Source: an uncultured Candidatus Saccharibacteria bacterium (GTDB taxonomy: Bacteria > Patescibacteriota > Minisyncoccia > Phycocordibacterales > GCA-2401445). Taken from it: a stretch of DNA of 64,000 nt. Below are positions 1,741-51,014 of this stretch, piece after piece (within the stretch, counting starts at the first letter, position 1; each line of letters opens with the position of its first letter). The notes below the pieces were generated by a model, which made no database searches, was not told the DNA's origin, and worked only from the letters and a program-made list of their open reading frames with translations. The DNA is taken from positions 16,678 to 80,677 of the forward strand of contig CAYTAR010000003.1 of the NCBI GenBank assembly GCA_964436015.1, given 5' to 3'. The position numbers were made by a program, and so were the translations under genes.

Positions 1741-1771
1741 AATCCTGCCGAGGTCGGACCTCGGCAGAAAT
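1741..1771. repeat. 33-bp near-perfect palindromic repeat, copy 1 (aatcCTGCCGAGGTCgGACCTCGGCAGaaatt)
   Basis: Perfect 11-1-11 palindrome. A second copy at 5291..5321 differs only at the central base. Confidence 0.8.
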
Positions 1772-1797
1772 TTGAATAATGCAGATAGAAAATCTTG

Positions 1798-1824
1798 TTG
1801 ACAAAGTAATATATTTTGTATAGT
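1798..1824 (+). promoter_or_regulatory. sigma-70-like promoter for the YcaO-SagB gene
   Basis: TTGACA at 1798-1803 and an extended -10 TGtTATAGT ending at 1824. AAGGAT ribosome-binding site 7 nt before the ATG at 1875. Confidence 0.55.
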
Positions 1825-1874
1825 GTCAAGATAAATAAACTAGTTCTTAAACAATATAAGCGAAAGGATAAATC

Positions 1875-4055
1875 ATGAACTTTGGAAGTATACCTGTTGT
1901 ATGGGCTTCTGTTTTTATTTCGAGCAGAAAGACCACTTTTAGCACTTTCAGCAAAGAAGTGGTGGTTGAAGTCCCTCGGGCTGTTATTGCTGCTCTATTG
2001 GAGGCCTGCAATGGAAGTAGGATCCTGAGCGAAGTAATTGATATTTTGTCCCAGGATTGGGACCGGACATCAATCGAAGGGCTTATCGAGGAGTTGTTCA
2101 AAAAGCAAGTGATTGTTGATGGAAAAACACTCGAAGGTGAGTTCTGGAAAAATGTTACGAATCCGATGAGGTTTCCAACAAATATCAGCGATAAGAATGT
2201 GGCGCGTCTGGTATTCCATGCTACAGAAAGGCACCGAAAAGAAAAACCTGAGAAGGTTTACAGACCTTCAAAAAGTGATTTCTCTGAGATTGTTAGTCGT
2301 CGCAAATCCGTCCGTATTTTTTCTGGAGAGACCGTCGATTTTCAAATTGTCATTGATCTGCTTTGGAGTGCGTATGGGGAATGTTTGACAACTGACGGGC
2401 GACCTCATCGCTCTGTACCATCTGCTGGAGCACTTTATCCTCTAATCATTCATGTTTGCCTATTTGAAAAAACAGGCGATCTGGATCCGGGGGTATATCG
2501 AGTGCTTTACGATCAAGAAGGTTCTGTCGGCTTTAAGTATGTTTCAACTGATACATTGAGGTTTGCCAGGTCTTTCTTGAATCCTGTTAGTATCCAGAAA
2601 GGAATTCACGGAGTCATTGTCATTAGCGGATCATTCGCTGTGTCAAATCAAAAATACGGTAACCGAAGTATGCTGTACGTTCCCTTGGAGGCTGGGCACT
2701 CTGCTCAGAACGTTCTCCTAGAAGCTACCCGTCAAGGTGTTGCAACGCTAGAAATTGGAGGTTTTGTGGACGAGCTTGTTGCTCAGTCTATTGAACTTCC
2801 TGATGACTATCAACCGCTTACTCTCGTTGCTTTTGGTAAAGAGTCTGAACAAGTTGATTTGAAAAAACCTTCGACCTTGCAAGTTGATTGGGCTATCCCA
2901 TCGGCCAAAGGGTATGCTCCTGGTTTTGCTATTGCATCGGCTCGCTTGTCAGAAAAACGAAGTTGGTCGCACGGCAGAGATCCTTCTCCTGAGTTGGCTT
3001 TTAAAAAAGCGATTTCTGAAACCAAGGAATGGACTTCTTGTGGATGTATTCCGGAGCTTACTTGTGCTACTTATCGTGAGTTAGATAATGTTATTGATCC
3101 TCGAGAAATCATTCGATTTCACAAGAGTCAGTACAGGATCAAGGGGTTTCCGTTTGCGCAGTTTAATAAGAATATAAGGTACAACTGGACAAAAGGATTT
3201 GACATGAGTGGAAATGAATTTTATATTCTTGCCGATCATGTTTATTTCCCATATTTTCCAGAAACGCCTTACTATTGTTTTTCAAACTCATCGGGATGCG
3301 CTGCGCACCCTGATAAGCAGATGGCAATTAAGACTGGAACTCTTGAATTAATCGAACGGGATGCATTTATCAACTCGTATTTCTGCAGACTTGATATGCC
3401 AGTAGTTTCAGAAGATACTCTACCGGATGATATTCAAAAGCGTATCTATGAGCTAAGGGAAGTCGGGTTTGAAGTGTGGGTTGTTGATCATTCGCTCGAT
3501 TTGGCACCTGTGGTATTTGTCATGGCTCAAAGTGAAAAGCATACTTTTACCACCTGTGCATCTTGCTCCAGTTTTGATGTTGAGCATGCTGTCAGTCATT
3601 CGCTCATGGAAGTAGAGGCATCCATTCTTCATCGTCTGCAACATGGCGTGTCCGATAAGATCCGTCCAGATAAGGTCATTTGGCCTAACGATCACGGTCG
3701 TCTTTACGGCCAAAAACAATACTTCCGCCGTGCGGATTTCTTGGTTGCAAGCCAAAGGTCTGTACCGTTCCAAGAGATAGGGGGCAACGCTCCTAAAACT
3801 TGGGACAATCTCCTTGGTTGTTTCGAGGGTAAGGGTTGGAAACATTTAGTTGTTCCTCTCGAGCTCTCTGATGACTATGGAGGAAACGGTGATCTCAGTA
3901 TTGTCAGAGTGATCGTTCCTGGCACCATACAGATGACCTTTGGCAATCGTCAGGAACCTGCTGGAATGAAGCGTCTGTATGAAATCGCCGAGAGGTTCGG
4001 ACGAGGTAAATTGACTTACAGTCAGCTAACTAAGTTCCCGCATCCTTTTGAGTGA
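1875..4055 (+). CDS. TOMM-type RiPP maturase: fused N-terminal RRE-like domain + SagB-type FMN dehydrogenase + azoline-forming YcaO cyclodehydratase
   Basis: 726 aa. Residues about 130-330 carry nitroreductase/SagB motifs (RKSVRIF, SAGALYP, LEAGHSAQN). Residues about 350-726 carry both YcaO signature blocks (GRDPSPELAFKKAISETKEW and SSGCAAHPDKQMAIKTGTLELIERDAF). The C terminus ends in the proline-rich FPHPFE motif typical of azoline-forming YcaOs. The first about 120 aa look like a PqqD-like leader-recognition (RRE) winged helix. Confidence 0.85.
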   Translation: MNFGSIPVVWASVFISSRKTTFSTFSKEVVVEVPRAVIAALLEACNGSRILSEVIDILSQDWDRTSIEGLIEELFKKQVIVDGKTLEGEFWKNVTNPMRFPTNISDKNVARLVFHATERHRKEKPEKVYRPSKSDFSEIVSRRKSVRIFSGETVDFQIVIDLLWSAYGECLTTDGRPHRSVPSAGALYPLIIHVCLFEKTGDLDPGVYRVLYDQEGSVGFKYVSTDTLRFARSFLNPVSIQKGIHGVIVISGSFAVSNQKYGNRSMLYVPLEAGHSAQNVLLEATRQGVATLEIGGFVDELVAQSIELPDDYQPLTLVAFGKESEQVDLKKPSTLQVDWAIPSAKGYAPGFAIASARLSEKRSWSHGRDPSPELAFKKAISETKEWTSCGCIPELTCATYRELDNVIDPREIIRFHKSQYRIKGFPFAQFNKNIRYNWTKGFDMSGNEFYILADHVYFPYFPETPYYCFSNSSGCAAHPDKQMAIKTGTLELIERDAFINSYFCRLDMPVVSEDTLPDDIQKRIYELREVGFEVWVVDHSLDLAPVVFVMAQSEKHTFTTCASCSSFDVEHAVSHSLMEVEASILHRLQHGVSDKIRPDKVIWPNDHGRLYGQKQYFRRADFLVASQRSVPFQEIGGNAPKTWDNLLGCFEGKGWKHLVVPLELSDDYGGNGDLSIVRVIVPGTIQMTFGNRQEPAGMKRLYEIAERFGRGKLTYSQLTKFPHPFE

Positions 4056-4060
4056 TACCA

Positions 4061-4099
4061 AGACGGAAGGCTAAAAACTTTCCGTCTTTTTTTTATTTT
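4061..4099 (+). terminator. Rho-independent terminator
   Basis: AGACGGAA / TTCCGTCT stem, 11-nt loop, then a T run of 12. Confidence 0.7.
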
Positions 4100-4113
4100 G
4101 CTAGTATAAAGTA

Positions 4114-4926
4114 ATGAATAAAGGTTTGTCACAAATTGAATTTTATTTTCCAAGCGGAGAATTTAATGACAAAAATGAAATAGGGGACTCAATCGTCTCT
4201 CTAATGAAAGAAAATGGAAGTATTGATTATTCTGGCTATGCAGATGTCGATTTGTTAAAGCAGGGTTTATTGGACCACATTGGAAACGGAAGTGTTGAGC
4301 AATATAAAGAAATCTCTGAGGAGCAGAGGTTGGAAATAGAAAAAACTATTTCAGAAACCATTGATAAGTGTAATGAAAAATTATCTGTTCCAACTAAGAA
4401 TTTTATTTTTGTTCATCCCTACCTTACCACCGAAGATGACAAGGTTTTTGACGGCGTAATGGCTGTGGCAGTTTACAGCTGTGTTTTTCATTTGTTTATA
4501 AATTTAGATCAATACTCAAAAAAATCTATCGAAAATACCGTTGCTCACGAACTGAATCATACAATCTACTACTACTATCATTATGATGATTTCAATAACT
4601 ATACACTTTTAGATGAAATATTATTAGAAGGTTTGGCAGAAAATTTTAGAGAACAGTATTTTGATGCTGAAGTTAGCAAGTGGGCTGGTGCATTAAATAA
4701 AGATGAGGCATTTAAAGTATTAAAGGAATCAGAAGGTATTCTTGAATCCAGAGACAAGAAAGTTATTGGTGAATTTCTGTTTGGAAACGATAGGTATAAA
4801 AGATGGACAGGCTACTCAGTTGGGTATTGGTTGGTTAAAGAATTTTTAAAAAATAATATCAATGTACCTTGGACTGAAATAATGAAGATGGATTCACAAA
4901 GATTTTTAGTAGCTGTTAACAAATAA
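4114..4926 (+). CDS. putative Zn-dependent metallopeptidase (HExxH...E), candidate leader peptidase
   Basis: 270 aa. AHELNH motif with a downstream EGLAE (gluzincin-like). Lies between the YcaO gene and the precursor peptide. Confidence 0.45.
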   Translation: MNKGLSQIEFYFPSGEFNDKNEIGDSIVSLMKENGSIDYSGYADVDLLKQGLLDHIGNGSVEQYKEISEEQRLEIEKTISETIDKCNEKLSVPTKNFIFVHPYLTTEDDKVFDGVMAVAVYSCVFHLFINLDQYSKKSIENTVAHELNHTIYYYYHYDDFNNYTLLDEILLEGLAENFREQYFDAEVSKWAGALNKDEAFKVLKESEGILESRDKKVIGEFLFGNDRYKRWTGYSVGYWLVKEFLKNNINVPWTEIMKMDSQRFLVAVNK

Positions 4927-4929
4927 AAA

Positions 4930-4960
4930 GACGTAGTGACAACTGACTGGTCACTACGTC
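4930..4960. terminator. bidirectional hairpin terminator between convergent genes
   Basis: GACGTAGTGAC...GTCACTACGTC perfect 11-bp inverted repeat, A-rich on the left. Confidence 0.6.
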
Positions 4961-4974
4961 CTATAAAGGAAGCA

Positions 4975-5100
4975 TCATTTGCTCCCGCACTTGCCGTTGC
5001 CGCCGCCACCAGAACTGCACTGTTCCTGACACACAACTGTGCCAGGAAGAGGCTTGTCTTTGGCAGTGACTTTCCAAGAGAACTTTTTAGGATTCTTCAT
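4975..5100 (-). CDS. candidate TOMM precursor peptide (41 aa): MKNPKKFSWKVTAKDKPLPGTVV-CQEQCSSGGGGNGKCGSK
   Basis: Minus-strand ATG at 5098-5100 preceded by AAGGAGA 7 nt upstream. Strong promoter upstream. The Cys/Ser/Gly-rich C-terminal core is typical of heterocyclised RiPP substrates. Stop at 4975-4977. Confidence 0.55.
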   Translation of the reverse strand: MKNPKKFSWKVTAKDKPLPGTVVCQEQCSSGGGGNGKCGSK

Positions 5101-5169
5101 GGTTGTCTCCTTTCCAATAGTTAAGGTTTCACCGTCAACTGTGTAAAGTAAATCTTTACACCTAATCAA

Positions 5170-5198
5170 AATATAAGCATTACAGGTCAGTATGTCAA
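5170..5198 (-). promoter_or_regulatory. sigma-70-like promoter for the precursor peptide
   Basis: Minus-strand TTGACA-17 nt-TATATT, about 70 nt upstream of the precursor ATG. Confidence 0.6.
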
Positions 5199-5290
5199 CA
5201 TTACGAAATGATTCAATATCTTGGAATTTACACAATAATTTCATAAGGTATGCTAATTGCATATACTAAAATAAAAGATTGGTTGTAATA

Positions 5291-5321
5291 ATCCTGCCGA
5301 GGTCCGACCTCGGCAGAAATT
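5291..5321. repeat. 33-bp palindromic repeat, copy 2 (aatcCTGCCGAGGTCcGACCTCGGCAGaaatt)
   Basis: Identical to 1741..1771 except for the central base. Lies upstream (minus-strand sense) of the precursor promoter. Confidence 0.8.
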
Positions 5322-5424
5322 AGCGTTGGTATTTCTAAGTAAATGAGAGATTGACTAATGCTTAATTTCATTATATTGTTTTCGTAGTTAAAATGCAGTA
5401 AATCAGATACGAAAGGAAAAATGA

Positions 5425-5697
5425 ATGAATGACACGACGTGGTACATTCACCCCGGTGGGTGCGTAACGACCAATCGCCTTCTCGCGGAACGTCTTCCGC
5501 AAGAAGATGCCTGTCCACAGAAGCTCTGTGCTGATGGTGTTCTGCGGGACCTTTGGAAGTGCGACCATGCGGTGGTTACTGAATTCACTCGCGCTCGGAA
5601 ACAACTCTCCCTTAATTTCAAAGTGTTTGTGCAGGAGGGGCAGGGGCCGGTGCGCCTGTGGAAGTTTGAAGAGAAGAAGCAAGCAACGAAGGTGTGA
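5425..5697 (+). CDS. small GC-rich Cys-containing hypothetical protein
   Basis: 90 aa. AAGGA ribosome-binding site, an upstream TTGACT-17 nt-TATTGT promoter (5351-5379) and a strong downstream terminator. GC content is clearly above its surroundings and several frames are open across it. Confidence 0.4.
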   Translation: MNDTTWYIHPGGCVTTNRLLAERLPQEDACPQKLCADGVLRDLWKCDHAVVTEFTRARKQLSLNFKVFVQEGQGPVRLWKFEEKKQATKV

Positions 5698-5714
5698 CAT
5701 TCGTTGTTTGAAAA

Positions 5715-5750
5715 CACAACACGCGGACCGTAGGTCCGCGTGTTTTTCTT
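5715..5750 (+). terminator. Rho-independent terminator
   Basis: ACGCGGACC..GGTCCGCGT stem followed by TTTTTCTT. Confidence 0.7.
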
Positions 5751-5821: not shown

Positions 5822-6796
5822 ATGAAAAAGAAGCATACACAGAAGAATATTGTTATTTACCAAGCAAAGAACGGAGCGATTGAACTTCGGGGTGATTTTG
5901 GGCATGAGACAGTATGGGCGACCCAGGCTCAAATAGCGAATGCTTTTGAGACAAACCGTTCTGTAGTCACAAAGCATATTAGAAACATTTTGAATGATAA
6001 GGAACTTGATGCGAAATCAGTATGTGCAAAATTTGCACATACTGCCGAGGACGGTAAAACCTACCAAGTTCAATTCTATAATCTCGATGTTATTTTGGCT
6101 GTGGGTTATAGAACTAATTCAAAACGTGCCATTGAATTTCGTAAATGGGCAACAAAGACGCTTCGGGAATATATTACAAAGGGCTACGTAATCAATCGTA
6201 AGCAGATTCAGAAGAATCATAAAGAATTTCTGAAAACCGTTGAATCAATTCAACAGTTGTTGCCGGAACATATCGCCCTTGATCCGAAATCAATACTTGA
6301 ACTTATCAAGGAATTTTCAAGTACATGGGTATCACTTGATGCATACGATAAGGAGTCTTTGAAGCCCGTTGGCGTTACGAAGAAATCAGTTGCAATTAGC
6401 GGTATTGAATTACGTGAGGTAATTGCTAACTTGAGAGCGGAATTGATGAGAAAGGGGGAGGCAGGAGAAATTTTTGCACAAGAAAGAAATGCGGGGAGTA
6501 TAGAGGGAATTATTGGAAACGTAATGCAGTCATTTGGGGATAAACCAGTATACGAAACAGTTGAGGAGAAAGCAGCACACCTTCTTTATTTTATGGTTAA
6601 AAATCATCCGTTTATTGATGGTAATAAGCGCTCCGGGGCGTTTGCTTTTGTCTGGTTCCTACGGAAACAGCGTGTAAAGGGAAGAAGTAACATTAACCCA
6701 AGCGCACTCACGGCACTGACACTTCTTATTGCTGAGAGTGATTCTAAAAAGATGGGGCAGATGGTTGCGTTAGTGACACAGATGTTGAAGAAGTAA
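5822..6796 (+). CDS. Fic/Doc family protein with RhuM-like N-terminal domain
   Basis: 324 aa. The N terminus (IVIYQAKNGAIELRGDFGHETVWATQAQIANAFETNRSVVTKHIRNI) resembles the RhuM virulence-protein family. The C terminus carries HPFIDGNKRSGA, matching the Fic/Doc HxFx(D/N)GNKR motif. Confidence 0.7.
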   Translation: MKKKHTQKNIVIYQAKNGAIELRGDFGHETVWATQAQIANAFETNRSVVTKHIRNILNDKELDAKSVCAKFAHTAEDGKTYQVQFYNLDVILAVGYRTNSKRAIEFRKWATKTLREYITKGYVINRKQIQKNHKEFLKTVESIQQLLPEHIALDPKSILELIKEFSSTWVSLDAYDKESLKPVGVTKKSVAISGIELREVIANLRAELMRKGEAGEIFAQERNAGSIEGIIGNVMQSFGDKPVYETVEEKAAHLLYFMVKNHPFIDGNKRSGAFAFVWFLRKQRVKGRSNINPSALTALTLLIAESDSKKMGQMVALVTQMLKK

Positions 6797-7084: not shown

Positions 7085-7171
7085 GGGGGTAAGAATTCAA
7101 GTGAAAGGAATCAAGAGACTTTTCTTTTGAAGTGGTTTTTGCATACATAGTATGTGTGTACATATGCACAC

Positions 7172-7201
7172 TTGACCTCCATACCCCCTGGGGGGTATAC
7201 T
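7172..7201 (+). promoter_or_regulatory. cso operon promoter with a CsoR-type operator in the spacer
   Basis: TTGACC-18 nt-TATACT. The perfect GC-rich palindrome ATACCCCCTGGGGGGTAT (7181-7198) fills the spacer and resembles known CsoR operators. Confidence 0.6.
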
Positions 7202-7207
7202 TGGTTT

Positions 7208-7483
7208 ATGACATACATAGATGAAAAAAATAAAGCGCGGGTAATACGTCGTCTCAAGTTACTTGAGGGACAAGTGCGAGGTCTTCAGCGAATGGTAGAG
7301 AAAGATACCTACTGTATAGATGTGATCACTCAAACATCGGCAGTTAAGCAGGGGTTATCTAATGTTGAAGATTTGCTTCTGGAGAATCACCTCGATCACT
7401 GCGTTCATCATCAGATGAAAACGGGGCAGACCGCAAAAGCAAAAAAAGAGATTATTACTGTGTATAAGTTAAAAAGAAAATAA
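7208..7483 (+). CDS. csoR: CsoR/RcnR-family copper-sensing transcriptional repressor
   Basis: 91 aa from the ATG at 7208. Shows the DUF156 fold signature and a Cys...His-Cys metal-ligand pattern (YCID...LDHCVHH). Immediately upstream of copA. Nearly leaderless relative to the predicted promoter. Confidence 0.75.
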
Positions 7484-7484
7484 T

Positions 7485-9779
7485 ATGCACACAGAAAATT
7501 ATCGGGTTAAGGGAATGCACTGTGCCTCATGTTCTTCGGTAATTGAGAAAACGCTTAAGAAAGTTGATGGGGTGCATTCAGTACAGGTGAACTATGGTAC
7601 TGAGAAAGCAAAAGTTTCTTTTGACTCATCAAAAGTAAACCCCCATGACTTGTCAAAGCACACTGAACCCCTTGGGTACACGCTTGAAGCAGAAGCGAGT
7701 GCTCAGGAGATGAACATGACAGCGGATGAACATGCTGCGCACACCGGCGTGAATCAGACAAAAAAAGAGAAGTTGGCAGAAGTGGCTGATATGCGTACCA
7801 AAGCATTTACCGCACTCCCCATAGCGCTGTTCGCAGCGTTTGTGATGGGATGGGATATGTTGGCAGAGTATAGTATTGCACCAATGATGGGTGAGACGCT
7901 TAAGAATTTTTTCCACCACGTGCTTCCAATACTCGCAACATATGTTTTATTTGTGGTGGGTAAGCCATACTTGTGGGGAGTGTATCGATTTTTCCGTTTT
8001 GGTAAAGCAAATATGGATACGCTGATAGGTATCGGTACCACCGCTGCTTTTCTGTACAGTTTTGCGGTAAGCGCGTTTGAAGAAGTACTCCGGCCTTTTA
8101 TTAATGTGGACTACCAATATTACGACGTAACCATTGTAGTGATTGCATTCATTGCTCTGGGTAAATATTTAGAGGCGCGCTCAAAGGTCAAAACAGGGGA
8201 CGCTATTGAAAAATTGCTCACACTGCAAGCAAAGTCAGCTTTGGTTATTCGTGAAGGAAAGGAAGTTGAAATTTCTGTTAATGAAGTGGTGCGCGGGGAT
8301 TTGATTATCGTAAAGCCAGGTGGAAAGATTCCTATAGATGGAGTGATTACCGAAGGAGAGTCTTTTGTTGATGAGTCTATGGTTACGGGCGAGCCAATGC
8401 CAGTGCAGAAAAAGGTTGGCGATCCTGTTGTTTCTGGAACACTCAATACACATGGTTCATTTATCTGTCGAGCGGAAAAGGTTGGTTCAGAAACACTCCT
8501 TGCGCACATTATACATATGGTTGAGGAGGCCCAGGGGAGTAAAGCGCCGATACAGGCGCTCGCCGATAAAATTTCGGCAGTATTCGTTCCTGCTGTGTTG
8601 GTAATTGCGTTTCTTTCCCTTGGTACCTGGCTCATTGTTGGTTCACAGTATATAGGTTTTTCTCAAGCACTTTCGTTCGGTCTCGTATCATTTGTAGGAG
8701 TGCTCGTGATTGCGTGCCCGTGCGCACTTGGACTTGCGACACCAACTGCAATTATTGTCGGTGTAGGTAAAGGGGCACGGGAAGGGATACTTATTAAAGA
8801 TGCAGAAACACTTGAAAAACTTCATAAGGTGAATACGGTTGTAGTAGATAAGACGGGGACGATAACCAAGGGTAAGCCAACGCTCGTTGATATTGAGAAT
8901 ATATCAAGTGTGACTGATACCGATCTTGTGAGTATTCTCGCCACACTTGAACGGAAGTCAGAACATCCAATAGCACACGCAATCGTAGCGTACGCACAGG
9001 AGAAGAATGTTTTATTATCAGAAATCTCTGGGTTTGAAGGGCTGCAAGGTAAAGGGGTCACAGGTACTATTAAGGGAATAGAATATTTTGCAGGTAACGT
9101 AACTTTGGCGACCGATCTCGGGCTTTCGTTTGATACGCAGAAGCTACACGAATATACTTCTCAAGGGAAAACACCAATTTTACTCATGACAAGAGAGCGT
9201 GTTCTTGGATTATTTTCAGTGTCAGATGAAATAAAAGCCGAATCAAAACAAGCGGTCGCTGATCTACATAAGCACGGTATTAAAGTGGTAATGCTCACCG
9301 GGGATGACGAAAAGGCTGCGCAGTATATTGCAAAACTTGTTGGTATTGATGAAGTGATTGCGCATGTGTTACCGCAGGATAAACGTGCAAAGATTATAGA
9401 GCTTCAAACACAAGGTCGCGTTGTAGCTATGGCGGGGGACGGGGTAAACGATGCACCTGCTCTTGCACAGGCGGATGTGGGAATTGCGATGGGGACCGGA
9501 ACAGATGTGGCGATTGAATCTGCAGGGATTACTCTTTTGGGAGGCGATATCTCAAAACTGGTGAAGGCAATTAAACTCTCAAAGATAACCATGCGAGGGA
9601 TTAAACAAAATTTGTTTTGGGCATTCATATACAATGTTGTTGGTATTCCACTTGCAGCAGGCGTATTCTACCCACTGTTTGGATGGTTACTGAATCCAGT
9701 GTTTGCAGGTTTTGCAATGGCAATGTCTTCGGTATCGGTGGTATCAAACTCACTTCGTATAAAGGCTAAAAAATTATAA
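7485..9779 (+). CDS. copA: copper-translocating P1B-type ATPase
   Basis: 764 aa. N-terminal HMA domain (GMHCASC), CPC in a TM helix, [19 protein letters not shown]. Confidence 0.95.
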
Positions 9780-9783
9780 TCAT

Positions 9784-10791
9784 ATGAAAACATATACATT
9801 GTACGTATCAGGAACTCATTGTCCCTCATGTAAGATTTTTATTGAGGATACTTTGAACGAAGAATCTGGTATTGAGCAGACAACAGTTGACTTACAAAAG
9901 GAAACGGTCTCTTTTAACACTACGCTTGAAGAGAGTCCGCAGGTACTTGCTCATATGTTGACCGAGAAGATAAAGCACAATGGGTATGTGCTTTCAGTTG
10001 AGCAAAAAGCACCGGAGAGAGGTGATGGAGCGGTCATATGGCAAGCCTTGCCAGTTGGTCTCATATTTCTTGCTCTGTTCTTTTTCCTACAAAAATCAGG
10101 TATTCTCAATTTCGGACTTGGTGGACAAATGACATTGGTAACTAGTTTTATTATCGGTCTCGTTGCTTCTGTTTCAAGCTGTCTCGCACTCGTAGGAGGT
10201 CTCGTGCTCTCGCTTTCTGCAAAAGTATCACAAGATGAAATAAGTGACACCAGAACGTTCACTCTCTTCCATGTAGGGAGAATCGTGAGTTTTGCGGTAT
10301 TGGGAGGCGCACTTGGGGCGATAGGGGGTGCGATTGGTATCAATTTTACACTCACTGCAGTATTGGGGATTATTGCTTCTGTGGTGATGTTGTTGCTCGG
10401 GTTGAATCTTGTTGGAGTTTTTACGAAAAATACGGTGTTTATACCAGCAGGACTATTCAATTTTTTCAAGAGGATTGAACACACAACCTTCACTCCACTC
10501 ATTCTTGGATTCGCGACATTCTTTCTGCCTTGTGGCTTCACGCAGTCAATGCAAGTTGTTGCATTGAGTAGTGGATCTTTCTTCTCAGGAATGCTTATTA
10601 TGTTGACTTTCGCACTGGGGACACTTCCAATGCTCCTCTTGCTTTCTTTCGGTTCAGCATCTTTTGCTCATTCAAAGTATGCATCACTGTTCTTTAAGTC
10701 AGCGGGAGTGGTTGTGATAGGTCTTGGGCTGTTTTCACTCCTTGCTGGTCTTGCTGGTTTGGGAATTATCAGTCCGTTATTTAGTATATAA
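9784..10791 (+). CDS. HMA (CxxC) domain fused to a DsbD_2/TauE-like polytopic permease
   Basis: 335 aa. N-terminal SGTHCPSCK metal-binding fold, then about 7 TM helices with conserved Cys (SSCLA, LPCGF). Confidence 0.65.
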   Translation: MKTYTLYVSGTHCPSCKIFIEDTLNEESGIEQTTVDLQKETVSFNTTLEESPQVLAHMLTEKIKHNGYVLSVEQKAPERGDGAVIWQALPVGLIFLALFFFLQKSGILNFGLGGQMTLVTSFIIGLVASVSSCLALVGGLVLSLSAKVSQDEISDTRTFTLFHVGRIVSFAVLGGALGAIGGAIGINFTLTAVLGIIASVVMLLLGLNLVGVFTKNTVFIPAGLFNFFKRIEHTTFTPLILGFATFFLPCGFTQSMQVVALSSGSFFSGMLIMLTFALGTLPMLLLLSFGSASFAHSKYASLFFKSAGVVVIGLGLFSLLAGLAGLGIISPLFSI

Positions 10792-10799
10792 TTACAGGT

Positions 10800-11198
10800 A
10801 TGAATAAAATTCCATTAGTAATTCTTACACTCGGATTAGTGATAGGTATTGGTATTATTTTCATGAATGGTCCAGGGGAAAATTCTGAAAGTGTATCTGG
10901 TGAGCCGGGGCAAAATATTGAAATACGGGATGGGGTTCAGTATGTAACCATTGTTGCTAGGGGTGGATACTCACCACGTACTACTCAGATCCAAGGAGGA
11001 TTTCCAACTAAACTTATCGTGAAGACCGATGGCACGTACGACTGTTCAGCAGCGCTTGTTATTCGCTCGCTCGGTTTTCAGAAAATATTATCACCGGAAG
11101 GAGAAGAGATTATAGATGCGGGTATACCTAAATCAGGAGAGAAAATACAGGGAGTGTGCGGAATGGGAATGTACAGTTTTCAAATAGACGTAAGTTAG
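10800..11198 (+). CDS. cupredoxin-like domain protein (membrane-anchored)
   Basis: 132 aa. N-terminal TM helix and a GVQYVTIVARGGYSP block typical of the EfeO-type cupredoxin-like domains often next to copA. Confidence 0.55.
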   Translation: MNKIPLVILTLGLVIGIGIIFMNGPGENSESVSGEPGQNIEIRDGVQYVTIVARGGYSPRTTQIQGGFPTKLIVKTDGTYDCSAALVIRSLGFQKILSPEGEEIIDAGIPKSGEKIQGVCGMGMYSFQIDVS

Positions 11199-11276: not shown

Positions 11277-12020
11277 ATGAGTATATTTCCACTGCTCGGC
11301 ATTGCGCTCTTTATTCTTATTATCAGCATCCGACAAATTAACCAGTATGAGCGGGGATTGCGTTTTACTTTTGGAAAACTGACCGCGGTGATGGAGCCTG
11401 GGTGGAGGATTGTACTTCCCATTATCCAAGGATATCAAAAAGTTGATATTCGTGTGAAAGCGGTTGATGTGCCTGATCAGAATGCAATAACACGTGATAA
11501 CGTTTCGGTGCGGGTGAATGCGGTGATTTATTATCGAGTGAGTGACGCGGCAAAAGCGGTGGTGGAGGTTGAAGATTTCAGACATGCTATCTCACAGTAT
11601 GCTCAAACTACGATGCGAAATATTGTCGGCGAGGTAACGCTCGACGAGCTCCTCTCAAGCAGGGATAAGATTGCAGAGCGGATTCGCGAGATTGTTGATA
11701 AGGAAACAGATGCGTGGGGGTTACAGGTGAACAATGTTGAACTGAAAGATGTAAGTTTACCTCCGGAAATGGAGAGAACTATCGGAAAGCAGGCCGAAGC
11801 AGAACGAGAGAAGCGCGCAGTAATTATCAATTCAGAAGGGGAACTTGCAGCGTCCGAGAACATCGCAAAGGCGGCACACATGCTCTCATCAACTCCTGGT
11901 GCACTTCATCTCCGCACACTACAATCGGTGAACGATATGTCATCAGACCAGTCAAATACCGTTGTATTTATGATACCTACTGAAGCACTTCGCGCACTGG
12001 AAGGGTTTATCAAAAAGTAA
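11277..12020 (+). CDS. SPFH/Band-7 (stomatin/prohibitin-like) protein
   Basis: 247 aa. N-terminal TM helix, then the QNAITRDNVSVRVNAVIYYRV SPFH core. Confidence 0.9.
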   Translation: MSIFPLLGIALFILIISIRQINQYERGLRFTFGKLTAVMEPGWRIVLPIIQGYQKVDIRVKAVDVPDQNAITRDNVSVRVNAVIYYRVSDAAKAVVEVEDFRHAISQYAQTTMRNIVGEVTLDELLSSRDKIAERIREIVDKETDAWGLQVNNVELKDVSLPPEMERTIGKQAEAEREKRAVIINSEGELAASENIAKAAHMLSSTPGALHLRTLQSVNDMSSDQSNTVVFMIPTEALRALEGFIKK

Positions 12021-47373: not shown

Positions 47374-49056
47374 ATGTGGCAGTGGTATACTGAGTGTATG
47401 AAATCACGTTTTTTTACGCGACCTATTTTTTATATTCCACTACTCATGGTGTTTGTGGTGGGTATTATTGTATTCACTCAGCGTAATAATGAGTTGTTGC
47501 ATGAGACAGAGGTTGTAGCCCGCGGGACAATTCGAGAAGAAGTTACGTTGACTGGAAGAGTGGTTCCATCACAAAAGGTAGAGCTTGCATTCGAACGTGC
47601 GGGGAGGGTCTCACGTATATATGGTGACGTGGGTGATACTTTTCCCGCACAAGCTCTGATTGCAGAACTTGATTATCAAGATATATCAGCACAACTTCTT
47701 CAAGCGAATGCTAATGTGTCCGTTGAACGTTCACGATTAGAAGAATTATTGCGGGGATTGAGACCGGAAGAACGTGAGTCACAGGAGACTCGTGTGCGTA
47801 ATGCTGAGCGAACTCTTTCTATAGCGGAAGAAAAACAGATAACAGTTTTTGATAAAACAAAGCGAGATATGGAAGGGGTATATATTGATGCGTTGGCTAC
47901 AGTTAAGAATGCTGCTGTTGCAGGAAAAGACGTGCTTCTTAAGGCAACCGAGATTCAGTATCTGTATTTTAATTCTTATTCAACTGCGGATTCTGACCTT
48001 GCGTACATGAAGGAAGAGGCGGTTCGTTTGCTGTTTAGTGTATCTGGGGCGGGAAGGTGGAGCGTGGATGCGCTAAGTATTCTTGATGGGGGTGTATACG
48101 GTAACGCATTTAAGATTACACCAGATAATGAGGAGTCTGTTGAAGAGGCACTTAAACACACGCAGGAGGCCTTGTTGCGTATACGATTGTTTGTTACCAG
48201 TATTCCCGTTAATACCCTTTTTAGTGATACTGAAAAGACTACCATGTCTACACTGAGGTCAGTTGCAGAAACACATGTAGAGAGCATCGCAAACGCAATG
48301 CAACGAATAAAAGCACAGCGTATTGCAAATGAAAATGCGCTTGCCATCGCACGTGCCGAGGTTACCTCTGCTCAAAACGCTCTTGAAGTAGCACGAAGTG
48401 ACCGTACGGTTGCTACTGCAGGAACCGCAGATGAGCAGGTGCGTGCACAAGAGTCTCGTGTTGAATCGGCGTTGGCGAATGTCGCCAATCTTTCTGCGCA
48501 GATAGAGAAAATGGTTATACGTGCTCCATTTGAGGGAACGCTCACAAAGAATGATGCAGTGTTGGGAGAAATCATATCACCCCATACTCCATATTTTGGA
48601 ATGATTGGTACAGATATATTTCAAATTGAAGCGTATATCCCTGAAGCTGATATTGCAAAAGTAGCTCTTGGGAATACCGCTCGCGTTACGTTTGATGCAT
48701 ACGGCCGTGATGAATTTTTTAATGCAACACTTACTAGTATTGCTCCCGCAGAAACAATTATAGACGGTGTGGCAACGTATAAGATCACACTCAAGTTCAT
48801 TGAACCGGATGAACGAATTCGTTCAGGAATGACGACAAATATAGATATTATTACTGCTGAGAAAAGTGACGTATTCTCGGTACCGCTTCGCTCTGTTGTG
48901 CGTCAGAACGACCGACGGTTTGTTCGTGTGCTAGGTCCACAAAATGAAATTGAAGAAGTGGAGGTTACAACGGGACTCCGTGGAATCGATGGAAGAATTG
49001 AGATTATCTCTGGTTTAGTGGGAGGGGAACGCGTCGTGACATATTTTATTGAATAG
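47374..49056 (+). CDS. HlyD/MacA-type periplasmic adaptor (membrane fusion protein)
   Basis: 560 aa. N-terminal TM helix, biotin-lipoyl-like and long coiled-coil, VIRAPFEGTL beta-barrel. Confidence 0.75.
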   Translation: MWQWYTECMKSRFFTRPIFYIPLLMVFVVGIIVFTQRNNELLHETEVVARGTIREEVTLTGRVVPSQKVELAFERAGRVSRIYGDVGDTFPAQALIAELDYQDISAQLLQANANVSVERSRLEELLRGLRPEERESQETRVRNAERTLSIAEEKQITVFDKTKRDMEGVYIDALATVKNAAVAGKDVLLKATEIQYLYFNSYSTADSDLAYMKEEAVRLLFSVSGAGRWSVDALSILDGGVYGNAFKITPDNEESVEEALKHTQEALLRIRLFVTSIPVNTLFSDTEKTTMSTLRSVAETHVESIANAMQRIKAQRIANENALAIARAEVTSAQNALEVARSDRTVATAGTADEQVRAQESRVESALANVANLSAQIEKMVIRAPFEGTLTKNDAVLGEIISPHTPYFGMIGTDIFQIEAYIPEADIAKVALGNTARVTFDAYGRDEFFNATLTSIAPAETIIDGVATYKITLKFIEPDERIRSGMTTNIDIITAEKSDVFSVPLRSVVRQNDRRFVRVLGPQNEIEEVEVTTGLRGIDGRIEIISGLVGGERVVTYFIE

Positions 49057-49768
49057 TATGCCATTTCTTGAACTTGTGGATGTAAAAAAAGAGTATTCAG
49101 ATGGTACTCAGGCATTGCGTGGTATTTCTTTTACTCTTGAAAAAGGAGATTTTGTTTCTATTATGGGTCCTTCAGGTTCAGGTAAGTCAACCTTGCTTCA
49201 TATTTTGGGCTTTCTTGACACCGCCTCAAGCGGAATATATCGCTTTGACGGAAAAAGCTATGATGATTATACTCCTGACGAAGTTTCTCATGTTCGGAAT
49301 CAAAAAATGGGTTTTATTTTCCAGTCATTCAACCTCCTTTCTCGAGCAACGGTATTTGATAATGTCCTATTACCGCTCATGTACTCATCGGTTCCAGTAC
49401 GTGAACGTCGTGATCGTGTATTGTCAGCGATTGAGTCTGTTGGTCTAACACATCGTGTTACGCATCTCTCCTCAGAGCTTTCAGGTGGAGAGCGTCAACG
49501 CGTGGCAATTGCTCGCGCTCTGGTTAATAACCCCGCATTGATATTTGCTGATGAACCGACGGGAAATCTAGACTCAAAATCAGGTGAGTTAATTATGGAC
49601 ATTCTCTATGACTTGAATCAAAAACGGAATCATACCGTAGTGCTCATTACTCACGAAACATATACTGCGCTTTATGGGGACCGTATCATTACTATAAAAG
49701 ATGGAGTAGTTGAACGAGAGGAGAAGGTGGAACAGAGAAAAACGAGTAACGTTGGCTTTTTGAAGTAA
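49049..49768 (+). CDS. ABC transporter ATP-binding protein (MacB/LolD-type)
   Basis: 239 aa. GPSGSGKST, LSGGERQRVAIARAL, IFADEPTGNLD. Confidence 0.9.
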   Translation: MNSMPFLELVDVKKEYSDGTQALRGISFTLEKGDFVSIMGPSGSGKSTLLHILGFLDTASSGIYRFDGKSYDDYTPDEVSHVRNQKMGFIFQSFNLLSRATVFDNVLLPLMYSSVPVRERRDRVLSAIESVGLTHRVTHLSSELSGGERQRVAIARALVNNPALIFADEPTGNLDSKSGELIMDILYDLNQKRNHTVVLITHETYTALYGDRIITIKDGVVEREEKVEQRKTSNVGFLK

Positions 49769-49769
49769 T

Positions 49770-51014
49770 ATGACTTTTAAGGATAGTATCAGTACAGCAG
49801 TACGTGGACTCCGAGCGAATCTTTCTCGGTCGCTACTAACAGTGCTCGGTATTGTTATTGGTATTACCGCAATTATTCTTATGATGGCGATGGGTAAAGG
49901 TGCTGAAGGTTTGATTCTTAACGAAATAGCAGGTCTTGGTGCTGAGACAATTGTAATACGTCCCGGAAAACAACCCACTGGACCCACTGACTTTGGCGAT
50001 ACTCTGTTCTCAAACTCACTCAAGTCTCGTGATTTGGATGCATTGCGTAAAAAAAGTAATGTGCCACACCTTATCACCGCAACTCCAGTACTGCTTGTTC
50101 CAGGAACGGTATCATTTAGTGGCGAGACATACCGAGCAACGGTAATGGGTGGTGAAGCCGAGTTTTTTGCAGAATCATTCAATGTGTATCCTGATCGCGG
50201 GGTACTTTTTACTGAACTTGATGTTCGTCAACAGGCGTCTGTTGCTGTTATTGGCGATAAGGTTGCGAGAGAGCTTTTCGGTGATTCAGAACCTTTGGGC
50301 GAGTTTATTTCTGTACGAGATAGAAAGTTTAGAGTGGTGGGAATATTCCCCCCTAAAGGTCAAGTGGCTTTTTTGAATTTTGATGAAATGGTTATTGTTC
50401 CATACACCACAGCACAACTGTATTTACTTGGAATTGATTATTTTCACGAGATTATCACAAAGGCTGATAGTCCAGAATCAGTGGCGCGAACTGTTCAAGA
50501 TATTGAGTATACTTTGCGAGAAACACATAACATTCATGATCCTATTGATGATGATTTTTATGTCGCCACTCAGCAAGCCGCCGTTGAACAGATTCAAACA
50601 ATCCTAGGAACCCTTACTATTTTCCTGTCATCAGTTGTGGCAATCGGCCTTGTTGTTGGAGGAATTGGGGTAATGAATATTATGCTCGTATCAGTGATAG
50701 AACGTACTCGTGAAATAGGTTTACGAAAAGCAATTGGGGCAACAAATAAAGATATCTTAACTCAGTTTTTGCTTGAAGCGGTGATACTGACTGCGTGCGG
50801 AGGTTTGATTGGGATACTACTTGGCGCGTCGTTCGCATTTTTACTTTCGTATTCCATTACTCTTTTATTTGATTTAGCTTGGGAATTTGTGTTTCCCGTA
50901 CAAGGCGCATTGCTTGGAATCGGCATGTCGACTGTGGTTGGATTAGTTTTTGGTTTGTACCCCGCGCGCAAAGCTGCACTTAAAAGTCCTATTGAAGCTT
51001 TACGGTACGAGTAG
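49770..51014 (+). CDS. ABC transporter permease, FtsX/MacB-type
   Basis: 414 aa. N-terminal TM helix, large periplasmic domain, C-terminal 3-TM FtsX fold. Confidence 0.85.
   Translation: MTFKDSISTAVRGLRANLSRSLLTVLGIVIGITAIILMMAMGKGAEGLILNEIAGLGAETIVIRPGKQPTGPTDFGDTLFSNSLKSRDLDALRKKSNVPHLITATPVLLVPGTVSFSGETYRATVMGGEAEFFAESFNVYPDRGVLFTELDVRQQASVAVIGDKVARELFGDSEPLGEFISVRDRKFRVVGIFPPKGQVAFLNFDEMVIVPYTTAQLYLLGIDYFHEIITKADSPESVARTVQDIEYTLRETHNIHDPIDDDFYVATQQAAVEQIQTILGTLTIFLSSVVAIGLVVGGIGVMNIMLVSVIERTREIGLRKAIGATNKDILTQFLLEAVILTACGGLIGILLGASFAFLLSYSITLLFDLAWEFVFPVQGALLGIGMSTVVGLVFGLYPARKAALKSPIEALRYE

What the first reader, a model, noticed from the sequence alone, without database searches (positions are those of the whole stretch)
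1741..5321. Compact, apparently self-contained TOMM-type RiPP cluster built around a single tri-domain RRE-SagB-YcaO maturase
One 726-aa protein (1875..4055) carries three domains. The first is a PqqD-like leader-recognition domain. The second is a SagB-type FMN dehydrogenase with RKSVRIF, SAGALYP and LEAGHSAQN blocks. The third is an azoline-forming YcaO with both signature blocks, ending ...SSGCAAHPDKQMAIKTGTLELIERDAF... and the C-terminal FPHPFE proline motif. Canonical TOMM systems split these functions over three proteins: an E1-like C protein, a YcaO D protein and a dehydrogenase B protein. Here there is no separate E1-like or Ocin-ThiF partner. A dehydrogenase fused upstream of YcaO in one polypeptide is an unusual architecture. 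Together with the adjacent HExxH peptidase and the convergently encoded Cys-rich 41-aa peptide, it forms a minimal thiazole/oxazole peptide locus in a small low-GC genome.
Basis: partly seen in the sequence, partly recalled or inferred. Interest (0 to 1): 0.85.

Follow-up and report, generated by a model that had tools for sequence, protein, structure and literature searches.

The report
Single-enzyme thiazole/oxazole peptide gene cassette
A three-gene cassette in an ultra-small (Patescibacteria-type) bacterium encodes a short Cys/Ser/Gly-rich peptide, one large enzyme that joins the three activities normally needed to turn such residues into thiazole/oxazole rings, and a zinc protease. It is an uncharacterised but widespread variant of a known kind of modified-peptide pathway.

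Summary

A DUF2268 HExxH+E protease (4114-4926) sits next to this enzyme in 31 related loci. The convergent 41-aa ORF (4975-5100, minus strand) is a real gene. It has a promoter, a Shine-Dalgarno site and a terminator, and synonymous changes outnumber non-synonymous ones. Its leader motif KKFSWKV recurs beside the enzyme in 25 of 49 loci (p = 3e-8), ahead of short Cys/Ser/Gly-rich cores.

No E1-like, Ocin-ThiF or TfuA partner is found in the window or among conserved neighbours.

The fused architecture is not rare: 327 clusters at 50% identity, in Patescibacteria and Burkholderiales. I found no publication describing or characterising it. LAP clusters in CPR genomes were noted in 2020.

Verdict: a linear azole-peptide cassette, a new variant of a known kind. 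The chemistry is inferred, not shown.

The parts
1741..1772 (.). Copy 1 of a 32-nt repeat containing the 23-nt palindrome CTGCCGAGGTC-G-GACCTCGGCAG. It lies just after the stop codon of the upstream gene and is probably a terminator or insulator hairpin at the left edge of the cassette.
   Evidence: The same hairpin occurs in 8 unrelated metagenome contigs, some followed by a T-run.
1798..1826 (+). Promoter-like TTGACA-17-TAGTGT upstream of the maturase gene.
   Evidence: Read from the sequence. The same TTGACA-17-TA(G/A)TGT arrangement is present upstream of the orthologues in L002 and L004. This is an inference; transcription has not been shown.
1875..2279 (+). Maturase residues 1-135. This is an RRE (PqqD-like winged-helix) domain, with beta strands 7-32 and helices 35-76, followed by two linker helices. 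Its predicted role is to bind the KKFSWKV leader motif.
2280..2879 (+). Maturase residues 136-335. This is an FMN nitroreductase-fold domain of the azoline-oxidase (SagB/McbC/ThcOx/BmdC) type. It carries RxSxR (R143, S145, R147) and the K260-Y261 dyad.
   Evidence: Pfam PF00881 E 1.7e-13. TIGR03605 E 1e-15, below the cut-off. K260-Y261 align with McbC K201-Y202 and are invariant in 47 homologues. Foldseek: BmdC, ThcOx, McbC.
2880..4055 (+). Maturase residues 336-726 plus the stop codon. This is a YcaO ATP-dependent amide-activating domain of the cyclodehydratase type. It has invariant E382/E385 and E491/E494/R495, and the C-terminal sequence FPHPFE.
   Evidence: Pfam PF02624 E 1e-39. TIGR03604 E 2.4e-40 over profile positions 31-376 of 377. 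Foldseek: LynD 1e-20, TruD, MusD. phmmer: TruD 2.7e-7, aligned through to its C-terminus. Invariant residues.
4060..4088 (+). Terminator-like hairpin followed by a T-run, between the maturase and protease genes. It may be an attenuator or a partial terminator.
   Evidence: Its function was not tested.
4114..4926 (+). DUF2268 zinc metalloprotease, 270 aa, with no signal peptide. The zinc-binding residues are H145-E146-x-x-H149 and E172. It is the predicted leader peptidase.
   Evidence: Pfam PF10026 E 1.9e-28. It is adjacent to the maturase in 31 loci. HExxH and EG are conserved in 30 orthologues.
4922..4960 (-). Intrinsic terminator of the precursor gene: GACGTAGTGAC ... GTCACTACGTC followed by a T-run.
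   Evidence: Read from the sequence. Equivalent hairpins follow the orthologous peptide genes.
4975..5100 (-). Precursor peptide gene, 41 aa. The leader is MKNPKKFSWKVTAKDKPLPGTVV, containing the KKFSWKV recognition motif. The core is CQEQCSSGGGGNGKCGSK, with three Cys residues, two of them conserved across the clade.
   Evidence: Orthologues occupy the same position in L001-L009 and other loci. Shine-Dalgarno sites are present and synonymous changes exceed non-synonymous ones. Motif enrichment p = 3e-8. The sequence is absent from the 15-billion-protein collection, so it is unannotated.
5170..5198 (-). Sigma-70-type promoter TTGACA-17-TATATT of the precursor gene, matching the consensus at 11 of 12 positions.
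5290..5321 (.). Copy 2 of the 32-nt hairpin repeat, at the right edge of the cassette.

Best explanation
This is a compact linear azol(in)e-peptide (LAP/TOMM-type) RiPP cassette.

Proposed mechanism:

1. The 41-aa precursor is transcribed from its own strong promoter, convergent to the enzyme genes.
2. Its N-terminal leader motif (K/R)(K/R)FSWK(V/I) is bound, probably as an added beta-strand, by the N-terminal RRE domain of the 726-aa enzyme.
3. The C-terminal YcaO domain uses ATP to cyclodehydrate Cys, and possibly Ser, in the core CQEQCSSGGGGNGKCGSK to azolines.
4. The central FMN domain oxidises the azolines to azoles through the Lys260-Tyr261 dyad.
5. The cytoplasmic DUF2268 HExxH+E metalloprotease removes the leader.

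The nitroreductase fold is an obligate dimer. I therefore infer that it replaces the E1-like or Ocin-ThiF scaffold that holds the RRE next to YcaO in canonical systems, giving a single-chain, probably homodimeric, azole synthetase.

What is shown here: the domain identities and folds, conservation of the catalytic residues, co-conservation of the three genes, the leader motif, and absence of a linked partner protein.

What is inferred: the chemistry (a loss of 20 Da per azole), which residues are modified, the cleavage site, dimerisation, export, and the biological role (antibiotic or other).
For: Domains:
- Pfam Nitroreductase and YcaO are above their gathering scores. The best NCBIfam models are SagD and SagB.
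- The AlphaFold model has pLDDT 88.2 and pTM 0.81.
- Foldseek returns the cyanobactin heterocyclases LynD and TruD (1e-20), MusD, the azoline oxidases BmdC and ThcOx, and McbC and McbD.

Catalytic residues:
- K260-Y261 align with McbC K201-Y202 (their role is described in PMC6395948).
- E382/E385 and E491/E494/R495 are invariant, as are P722 and H723 within the C-terminal FPHPF[E/A] sequence (P724 is nearly invariant).
- The alignment to TruD runs to its Pro-rich C-terminus.

Substrate:
- The small ORF has a promoter, a Shine-Dalgarno site and a terminator.
- Codon differences are 10 synonymous against 2 non-synonymous versus L003.
- The leader motif lies next to the maturase in 25 of 49 loci, against 2 of 3477 small ORFs elsewhere (Fisher p = 3e-8). 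This includes Burkholderiales/Reyranella loci at 26-34% enzyme identity.
- Cores are Cys/Ser/Gly-rich and differ between clades while the leader is conserved.

Protease: adjacent in 31 loci, with the zinc ligands conserved.

No partner: there is no ThiF/E1-like or TfuA protein among the window ORFs or among co-conserved neighbours.
Against: - No chemistry was observed.
- TIGR03604 (138.6 against 219.25) and TIGR03605 (57.7 against 78.4) are below their curated cut-offs.
- The window protein has no significant PqqD Pfam hit.
- The C-terminal motif is PHPF[E/A], not a full PxPxP.
- As far as I know, characterised azoline-forming YcaOs other than the bottromycin enzymes need an E1-like or ThiF-like partner. 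Activity without one is therefore unproven, and a partner encoded outside the 64-kb window cannot be excluded.
- The residues preceding the conserved Cys are Gln and Lys, not the Gly favoured in microcin B17.
- No exporter or immunity gene is linked.
- The core is unusually conserved within the clade for an antibiotic.
Confidence: 0.75

Rival explanations
1. It is a RiPP cassette, but the YcaO domain performs a different amide-activation chemistry, such as thioamidation, amidine or macroamidine formation, or ATP-dependent peptide-bond cleavage as in MusD. The flavin domain would then perform another dehydrogenation, for example formation of a dehydro-amino acid.
For: There is no E1-like or ThiF partner. 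SagD and SagB scores are below the curated cut-offs. MusD (7u58) and the thioamide-forming archaeal YcaOs are among the structural hits. RiPP nitroreductases can make dehydroPhe (PMC12636437).
Against: There is no TfuA or sulfur-donor gene. The best structural and sequence matches are azoline-forming heterocyclases. The McbC-type Lys-Tyr dyad is invariant. The Pro-rich C-terminus is aligned to that of TruD. Cores are Cys/Ser-rich. PMC12636437 itself notes that nitroreductases linked to YcaO typically make azoles.
Confidence: 0.1
2. The cassette is not self-contained. The fused enzyme still requires a trans-acting E1-like, Ocin-ThiF or other partner, or a separate exporter or immunity protein, encoded elsewhere in the genome.
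For: Canonical cyclodehydratases are strongly potentiated by the C or F protein (PMC4603692). Only 64 kb of the genome was available. A MacAB-like HlyD/ABC/FtsX efflux system lies 43 kb away, at 47374-51014.
Against: No such gene is co-conserved within 8 kb in 48 loci from very different genomes. The RRE, which is the part of the C and F proteins that recognises the leader, is already built into the enzyme. The cassette sits in different genomic contexts in close relatives, next to different tRNA genes. That pattern fits a unit that functions on its own.
Confidence: 0.1
3. The small ORF is not the substrate. The enzyme modifies another protein or peptide, as McrA-type or ribosomal-protein-associated YcaOs do, and the 41-aa ORF is an unrelated small gene.
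For: Some databases annotate homologues as 'ribosomal protein S12 methylthiotransferase accessory factor'. The peptide is not annotated anywhere.
Against: The small ORF is co-located with the enzyme in 25 of 49 loci, in two different gene orders (p = 3e-8). It is under purifying selection. It has the conserved leader plus variable Cys/Ser core organisation typical of RiPP precursors. The enzyme carries an RRE.
Confidence: 0.03
4. The flavin domain is only a structural scaffold that stands in for the E1-like domain, and the product keeps azolines rather than azoles.
For: RREs fused to dehydrogenases have been suspected of being vestigial (PMC7470986), which shows that fused RiPP domains can decay.
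Against: The FMN-phosphate motif R143/S145/R147 and the K260-Y261 dyad are invariant across 47 sequences at about 50% identity.
Confidence: 0.05

Closest known systems
Microcin B17 synthetase McbBCD (E. coli)
   Same: It uses the same three activities: leader recognition by an RRE, YcaO cyclodehydration, and FMN dehydrogenation through a Lys-Tyr dyad. McbC is 23-25% identical to the middle domain in the Foldseek alignments, and K201/Y202 align with K260/Y261. The core is likewise Gly-rich with Cys and Ser.
   Different: McbBCD has three separate proteins assembled as a B4C2D2 octamer, and its RRE sits on an E1-like McbB. Here there is one polypeptide and no E1-like domain. The leader, the core and the protease (DUF2268, rather than TldD/E as I recall) differ. 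There is no linked exporter or immunity gene.
Cyanobactin heterocyclases LynD/TruD/PatD with the oxidase ThcOx
   Same: LynD and TruD are the best structural and sequence matches of the YcaO domain. ThcOx is an RRE fused to an azoline oxidase, and it is the top Foldseek match of the N-terminal domain.
   Different: In cyanobactin pathways the RRE-E1-like-YcaO protein and the RRE-oxidase protein are separate. In this cassette an RRE-oxidase of the ThcOx type is fused directly to a YcaO that lacks the E1-like domain. There is no PatA/PatG protease and no macrocyclisation.
LAP clusters reported in candidate-phyla-radiation genomes (Sharrar et al. 2020, PMC7298704)
   Same: The host group and gene content are the same: YcaO, nitroreductase, peptidase and a precursor next to the YcaO gene. 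Those clusters were likewise predicted from sequence only.
   Different: That paper shows separate YcaO and nitroreductase genes and an 84-aa precursor in a Microgenomates genome. It does not describe the fused RRE-dehydrogenase-YcaO enzyme, the KKFSWKV precursor family or the DUF2268 partner.
E1-independent YcaOs of bottromycin biosynthesis
   Same: This is a YcaO acting on a ribosomal peptide without an E1-like or Ocin-ThiF partner (from my own knowledge; PMC4603692 notes that bottromycin has no identifiable C protein).
   Different: As far as I know, the bottromycin enzymes have no RRE and no fused dehydrogenase, and they use a follower peptide.
SagB-like/YcaO loci linked to ATP-grasp 'branch 6' (Makarova et al. 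2022, PMC8939145)
   Same: Proteobacterial members of the same tri-domain family sit next to an ATP-grasp-like protein in 11 loci. That paper noted the association of SagB-like and YcaO enzymes with ATP-grasps.
   Different: Those loci are more complex, with an ATP-grasp, ABC/HlyD transport genes and, in one case, two tandem maturases. They lack DUF2268.

Membership tests
YcaO superfamily (PF02624) | YcaO domain HMM score above the Pfam gathering score | tested here: met
   137.2 bits against 25.7, covering residues 369-684 and profile positions 4-324 of 325.
YcaO superfamily (PF02624) | Acidic ATP/Mg2+-binding motifs (ExxE and ExxER) | tested here: met
   E382/E385 (KAISETKEW) and E491/E494/R495 (LELIERD) are invariant in 47 homologues. 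The second motif aligns with the equivalent ELVERD of TruD and MusD. Their role in ATP binding is from my knowledge of E. coli YcaO.
Azoline-forming TOMM/LAP cyclodehydratase (SagD family, TIGR03604) | Score above the curated NCBIfam cut-off | tested here: not met
   138.6 bits against a cut-off of 219.25. It is nevertheless the best NCBIfam model and matches nearly full length, profile positions 31-376 of 377.
Azoline-forming TOMM/LAP cyclodehydratase (SagD family, TIGR03604) | Pro-rich C-terminal PxPxP motif | tested here: inconclusive
   The C-terminus is FPHPFE (FPHPFA or FPHPFP in relatives). P722 and H723 are invariant and P724 nearly so. It aligns to the C-terminus of TruD. Only two of the three prolines are present.
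Azoline-forming TOMM/LAP cyclodehydratase (SagD family, TIGR03604) | E1-like (C) or Ocin-ThiF-like (F) partner, fused or adjacent | tested here: not met
   There is no E1-like domain in the protein. None is found in about 48 window ORFs. None is co-conserved in 48 loci.
Azoline-forming TOMM/LAP cyclodehydratase (SagD family, TIGR03604) | Closest structures are azoline-forming heterocyclases | tested here: met
   Foldseek: LynD 3.7e-21, TruD 8e-20, MusD 4e-18. The thioamide-type archaeal YcaOs score lower, at about 1e-14.
SagB-type azoline dehydrogenase (TIGR03605 / McbC / ThcOx) | Nitroreductase FMN fold | tested here: met
   PF00881 scores 51.6 bits against 23.5. Foldseek: BmdC 6.5e-14, ThcOx 4.5e-12, McbC 1.8e-11.
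SagB-type azoline dehydrogenase (TIGR03605 / McbC / ThcOx) | Score above the curated NCBIfam cut-off | tested here: not met
   57.7 bits against 78.4.
SagB-type azoline dehydrogenase (TIGR03605 / McbC / ThcOx) | Catalytic Lys-Tyr dyad | tested here: met
   K260-Y261 align to McbC K201-Y202 (their role is described in PMC6395948). They are invariant in 47 sequences.
RiPP recognition element (PqqD-like, PF05402) | Significant PqqD HMM match | tested here: not met
   The window protein has no hit. Seven of 18 homologues give weak hits, best E 0.016. The PDB profile search finds PqqD at E 1.7.
RiPP recognition element (PqqD-like, PF05402) | Three-stranded sheet plus three-helix winged-helix fold | tested here: met
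RiPP recognition element (PqqD-like, PF05402) | Binds the leader peptide | not testable with these tools
   Support is indirect only: the FSWK leader motif is conserved wherever the enzyme occurs.
Linear azol(in)e-containing peptide (LAP) gene cluster | Adjacent precursor with a conserved leader and a Cys/Ser/Thr-rich core | tested here: met
Linear azol(in)e-containing peptide (LAP) gene cluster | The product contains azol(in)e rings | not testable with these tools
   This requires mass spectrometry of the co-expressed peptide.
DUF2268 predicted Zn protease (PF10026) | HMM score above the gathering score, with HExxH plus a downstream Glu ligand | tested here: met
   99.7 bits against 23.6. H145, E146, H149 and E172-G173 are conserved in 30 orthologues. 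Leader-peptidase activity was not tested.

The most novel reading that the evidence does not exclude
The RRE-dehydrogenase-YcaO proteins are a distinct, widespread class of E1-independent single-chain azole synthetases. In this class a dimeric flavin domain has taken over the scaffold role of the E1-like or ThiF partner. The enzymes are matched to a previously unrecognised precursor family defined by an N-terminal (K/R)(K/R)FSWK(V/I) leader.

In Patescibacteria the product would be a small two- or three-azole peptide whose core (QC...GKCG) is unusually conserved. That conservation hints at a conserved cellular or host-interaction target, or at metal binding, rather than an arms-race bacteriocin.
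Probability: 0.3. Interest if true: 0.7.

Novelty: new variant of a known kind. Interest (0 to 1): 0.55.

Why it matters
If the single polypeptide is sufficient, it would be the most compact azole-installing machinery known: one enzyme plus a recognition tag of about 8 residues. That would be useful for peptide engineering. It would also show that YcaO cyclodehydratases can be activated without the E1-like or ThiF partner that is thought to be nearly universal.

It also gives a concrete, testable natural product for Patescibacteria (CPR). These organisms have minimal genomes, and their chemistry and host interactions are almost unknown. Keeping a conserved RiPP cassette in such genomes suggests an important role.

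Tried and rejected
1. Mobile-element reading of the flanking 32-nt repeat. The hairpin is absent from the 79 related loci. It occurs in 8 unrelated metagenome contigs with no flank homology, some followed by a T-run. I therefore treat it as a generic terminator-like hairpin and not as an att site. I could not look for an empty site.

2. Phage carriage. A scan of viral contigs found no relative.

3. A recurrent 7-TM sensor-like protein seen in 10 loci. Follow-up BLAST showed only loose, inconsistent similarity, and it was dropped as a cassette component.

4. A conserved 5' UTR hairpin in the precursor mRNA. RNAalifold gives -3.5 kcal/mol, with some compensatory pairs and many broken ones. This is inconclusive.

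5. Sequence-only RRE detection (Pfam and PDB profile) was not significant. The fold search was needed to settle it.

6. Literature. Seven full-text searches found no description of a dehydrogenase-YcaO fusion. The 2017 YcaO review and Melby 2014 are not held in the library, so a mention there cannot be excluded. [quoted passage not shown]

7. The afdb50 fold library was unavailable.

8. Link to the alpha-KG HExxH enzymes. The paper concerns a different family and is not relevant to DUF2268.

Full report
**Observation.**
- Pfam assigns Nitroreductase to residues 141-322 (E 1.7e-13) and YcaO to residues 369-684 (E 1e-39). Both are above their gathering scores.
- The best NCBIfam models are the TOMM SagD-family cyclodehydratase TIGR03604 (2.4e-40, nearly full length) and the SagB dehydrogenase TIGR03605 (1e-15). 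Both score below their curated cut-offs. The protein is therefore a divergent relative, not a canonical member.
- ORF 4114-4926(+) is a DUF2268 HExxH protein (1.9e-28).
- The 41-aa peptide MKNPKKFSWKVTAKDKPLPGTVVCQEQCSSGGGGNGKCGSK lies at 4975-5100(-). It has a TTGACA-17-TATATT promoter, a GGAG ribosome-binding site and a hairpin terminator.
- The finding's outer coordinates are the edges of a 32-nt hairpin repeat that brackets the three genes.

**Domain identities.** An AlphaFold2 model built on 47 homologues is confident (pLDDT 88.2, pTM 0.81).
- *YcaO domain.* Foldseek against the PDB returns the cyanobactin heterocyclases LynD and TruD (about 1e-20) and MusD, then the archaeal and E. coli YcaOs. 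By sequence the domain matches TruD best (2.7e-7), with the alignment running to TruD's Pro-rich C-terminus. E382/E385 and E491/E494/R495 are invariant across the family, as are P722 and H723 in the terminal FPHPF[E/A]; P724 is nearly invariant.
- *Middle domain.* Foldseek returns the azoline oxidases BmdC and ThcOx, and McbC. The phmmer alignment to McbC places window K260-Y261 on McbC Lys201-Tyr202. The McbBCD structure paper describes that pair as the catalytic dyad (PMC6395948). The pair is invariant in 47 homologues.
- The tri-domain reading RRE, azoline-type dehydrogenase, YcaO is therefore confirmed.

**Family and context.**
- The search for homologous proteins returned 366 relatives. 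Nearly all of the 120 best listed are about 726 aa with the same two Pfam domains, they come mostly from metagenomes, and they are annotated at best as 'YcaO-like family protein'.
- In a library of 50%-identity representatives, 327 clusters score E<=1e-30. The top 150 are nearly all 700-770 aa and match over residues about 7-725.
- Genome loci place the family in Patescibacteria (Paceibacterota/Parcubacteria, Kaiserbacteria, Moranbacteria, Kerfeldbacteria, Magasanikbacteria). At 26-34% identity it also occurs in Burkholderiales and Reyranella, including the cultured Cupriavidus sp. H19C3, which has two tandem paralogues.
- I clustered all ORFs in 48 loci plus the window. Only one protein family travels with the enzyme in the Patescibacteria branch: the DUF2268 protease, in 31 loci. 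The proteobacterial branch instead carries an ATP-grasp-like protein and ABC/HlyD genes.
- The protease's HExxH and its downstream Glu-Gly are conserved in 30 orthologues.

**The precursor.**
- tblastn and ORF scans find orthologues of the 41-aa peptide in the same convergent position in L001-L009 and other loci.
- All eight closely examined copies have an AAGGAG-type Shine-Dalgarno site. All have terminator hairpins where the downstream sequence was inspected.
- Codon differences between close relatives are mostly synonymous: 10 against 2 for window versus L003, and 10 against 4 versus L001.
- The alignment shows a conserved leader motif P(K/R)KFSWK(V/I), a variable spacer, and a core Q(E/T)QC-SSGGGG-NGKCG with two conserved Cys.
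- A motif scan (F[STNEF]W[KRSNC][VIALT] within the first 45 residues) finds such a small ORF within 2.5 kb of the enzyme in 25 of 49 loci. Only 2 of 3477 small ORFs farther away match (Fisher p = 3.4e-8). One of the 25, in L030, looks doubtful.
- The hits include proteobacterial loci (L028 RSFSWSVV; L041 and L042 KTFSWSV). They also include clades whose cores are Ser-rich and lack Cys (L016, L024).
- In the distant clades the precursor lies directly downstream of the enzyme and the protease is convergent. The same three genes therefore occur in two different orders.
- A conserved leader with a clade-specific Cys/Ser/Gly core is the classical RiPP signature. It also argues that the built-in RRE reads the FSWK motif.
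- The exact peptide is not in the 15-billion-protein collection, so it is unannotated.

**No partner.**
- The enzyme has no E1-like domain.
- Pfam scans of about 48 ORFs across the whole 64-kb window found no ThiF/E1-like or TfuA protein.
- The only transport system is a MacAB-like HlyD/ABC/FtsX set 43 kb away.
- A partner encoded outside the window cannot be excluded.

**Mechanism.** I infer that the leader binds the RRE, the YcaO domain cyclodehydrates Cys (and possibly Ser) with ATP, the flavin domain oxidises azolines to azoles through K260/Y261, and DUF2268 removes the leader in the cytoplasm. Nitroreductase-fold enzymes are obligate dimers; McbC, for example, is a dimer within McbB4C2D2 (PMC6395948). 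The flavin domain therefore probably supplies the dimeric scaffold that the E1-like domain provides in LynD and McbB. None of the chemistry was observed.

**Comparison with what is known.**
- RRE-oxidase fusions are known (ThcOx; RRE-Finder paper PMC7470986). C-D fusions are common (PMC4603692).
- LAP clusters with YcaO, nitroreductase and peptidase were counted in 93 CPR genomes (PMC7298704).
- SagB-like and YcaO enzymes next to ATP-grasps were noted by Makarova et al. (PMC8939145).
- I found no paper describing or characterising an RRE-dehydrogenase-YcaO single chain, the FSWK precursor family, or DUF2268 as a RiPP protease. Two key subscription papers were not readable.
- I therefore rate it a new variant of a known kind. 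It works like a LAP/TOMM synthetase. It fails two family cut-offs and lacks the defining C/F partner.

**Side observations.**
- The bracketing hairpin is probably a generic terminator.
- Close relatives bracket the cassette with their own repeats, which include the -35 boxes of the two convergent promoters.
- Close relatives also place the cassette beside different tRNA genes. This suggests co-regulated promoters and a relocatable unit.

**Verdict.** Interest is moderate (0.55). The architecture and precursor family are new to the literature I could search, and they are experimentally very tractable. However, the chemistry expected is conventional, and CPR LAP clusters were already flagged.

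Noticed in passing
window 1741-1772 and 5290-5321: A 32-nt direct repeat, 31/32 identical and differing only at the palindrome centre, brackets the cassette. These are its only two copies in the 64 kb. The same 23-nt hairpin occurs in 8 unrelated metagenome contigs, some followed by a T-run. It is probably a terminator or insulator hairpin, not an att site.
   Followed up: partly
L003 1902-1942 / 5339-5379; L001 330-355 / 3754-3779; L004 7766-7852 / 11447-11533: In three close relatives the cassette is also bracketed by repeats, each with a different sequence: a 41-nt inverted repeat, a 26-nt inverted repeat and an 87-nt direct repeat. The arms of the two inverted repeats contain AATAATT...TTCTTGAC, which is the -35 region of both convergent promoters. 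This suggests duplicated, co-regulated promoters for the enzyme operon and the precursor gene.
   Followed up: partly
L001 113-197; L002 7644-7716; L003 1695-1769: A tRNA gene lies immediately upstream of the cassette in three relatives, and it is a different one each time: Leu-CAA, Glu-CTC and Val-TAC. The window has no adjacent tRNA. The cassette therefore sits in different genomic contexts, consistent with horizontal movement or relocation. No integrase is linked.
   Followed up: partly
window 4060-4088: A terminator-like hairpin with a T-run lies in the 58-nt gap between the maturase and protease genes. It may act as an attenuator that sets the enzyme-to-protease ratio. In distant clades the precursor gene occupies this position.
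   Followed up: no
window about 5120-5145 (minus strand); alignment A4: The 5' UTR of the precursor mRNA contains a short hairpin (GTGTAAAG...CTTTACAC). Its stem changes in a compensatory way in relatives (GCAAAG/CTTTGC, GAAAAG/CTTTTC). RNAalifold support is weak (-3.5 kcal/mol) and several pairs are broken.
   Followed up: partly
L039 4379-10834 (Cupriavidus sp. H19C3, chromosome 2): This locus has two tandem tri-domain paralogues (750 and 755 aa) separated by a 326-aa ATP-grasp-like gene. A 202-aa ORF follows; I did not scan it against any family library. A candidate precursor lies upstream, ending ...GSGGGGDSGCGS. The ATP-grasp-like protein accompanies the enzyme in 11 proteobacterial loci.
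   Followed up: partly
P0196, P0206, P0227: A few family members are about 950-970 aa, with an extra N-terminal region of about 240 residues ahead of the RRE. The identity of this extension was not examined.
   Followed up: no
window 5822-6796: A 324-aa protein combines a RhuM-family N-terminal region with a Fic/DOC (death-on-curing) C-terminal domain. Such genes are typical of mobile or accessory regions. A 69%-identical homologue lies about 5 kb from the cassette in L022.
   Followed up: no
window 7154-11198: A copper-resistance block lies 2 kb from the cassette: a CsoR-type metal-sensing repressor, a CopA-like P-type ATPase with an HMA domain, an HMA-DsbD_2 membrane protein and a cupredoxin-like protein. 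The neighbours I tested (the 246-aa, 90-aa, Fic, DUF2200 and 153-aa proteins) are not conserved next to the cassette in other loci, apart from one Fic match and one 153-aa match. The copper genes themselves were not searched against those loci, so a link is untested; none is evident.
   Followed up: no
window 5425-5697 (+) / 5371-5700 (-): Overlapping ORFs of 90 aa and 109 aa on opposite strands lie between the cassette and the Fic gene. Neither has a Pfam family. A strong bidirectional terminator at 5718-5744 favours the plus-strand ORF.
   Followed up: no
window 47374-51014: A MacAB-like efflux set (HlyD-family adaptor, ABC ATPase, MacB/FtsX permease) is the only obvious exporter in the window. 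It could export the peptide, but it is 43 kb away and not linked.
   Followed up: no
whole window: GC skew is positive in nearly every 2-kb bin, and the cumulative skew rises almost monotonically. About 50 of 61 large ORFs are on the plus strand. The window appears to lie entirely on one replichore with strong leading-strand gene bias. The convergent precursor gene is one of the few minus-strand genes.
   Followed up: no
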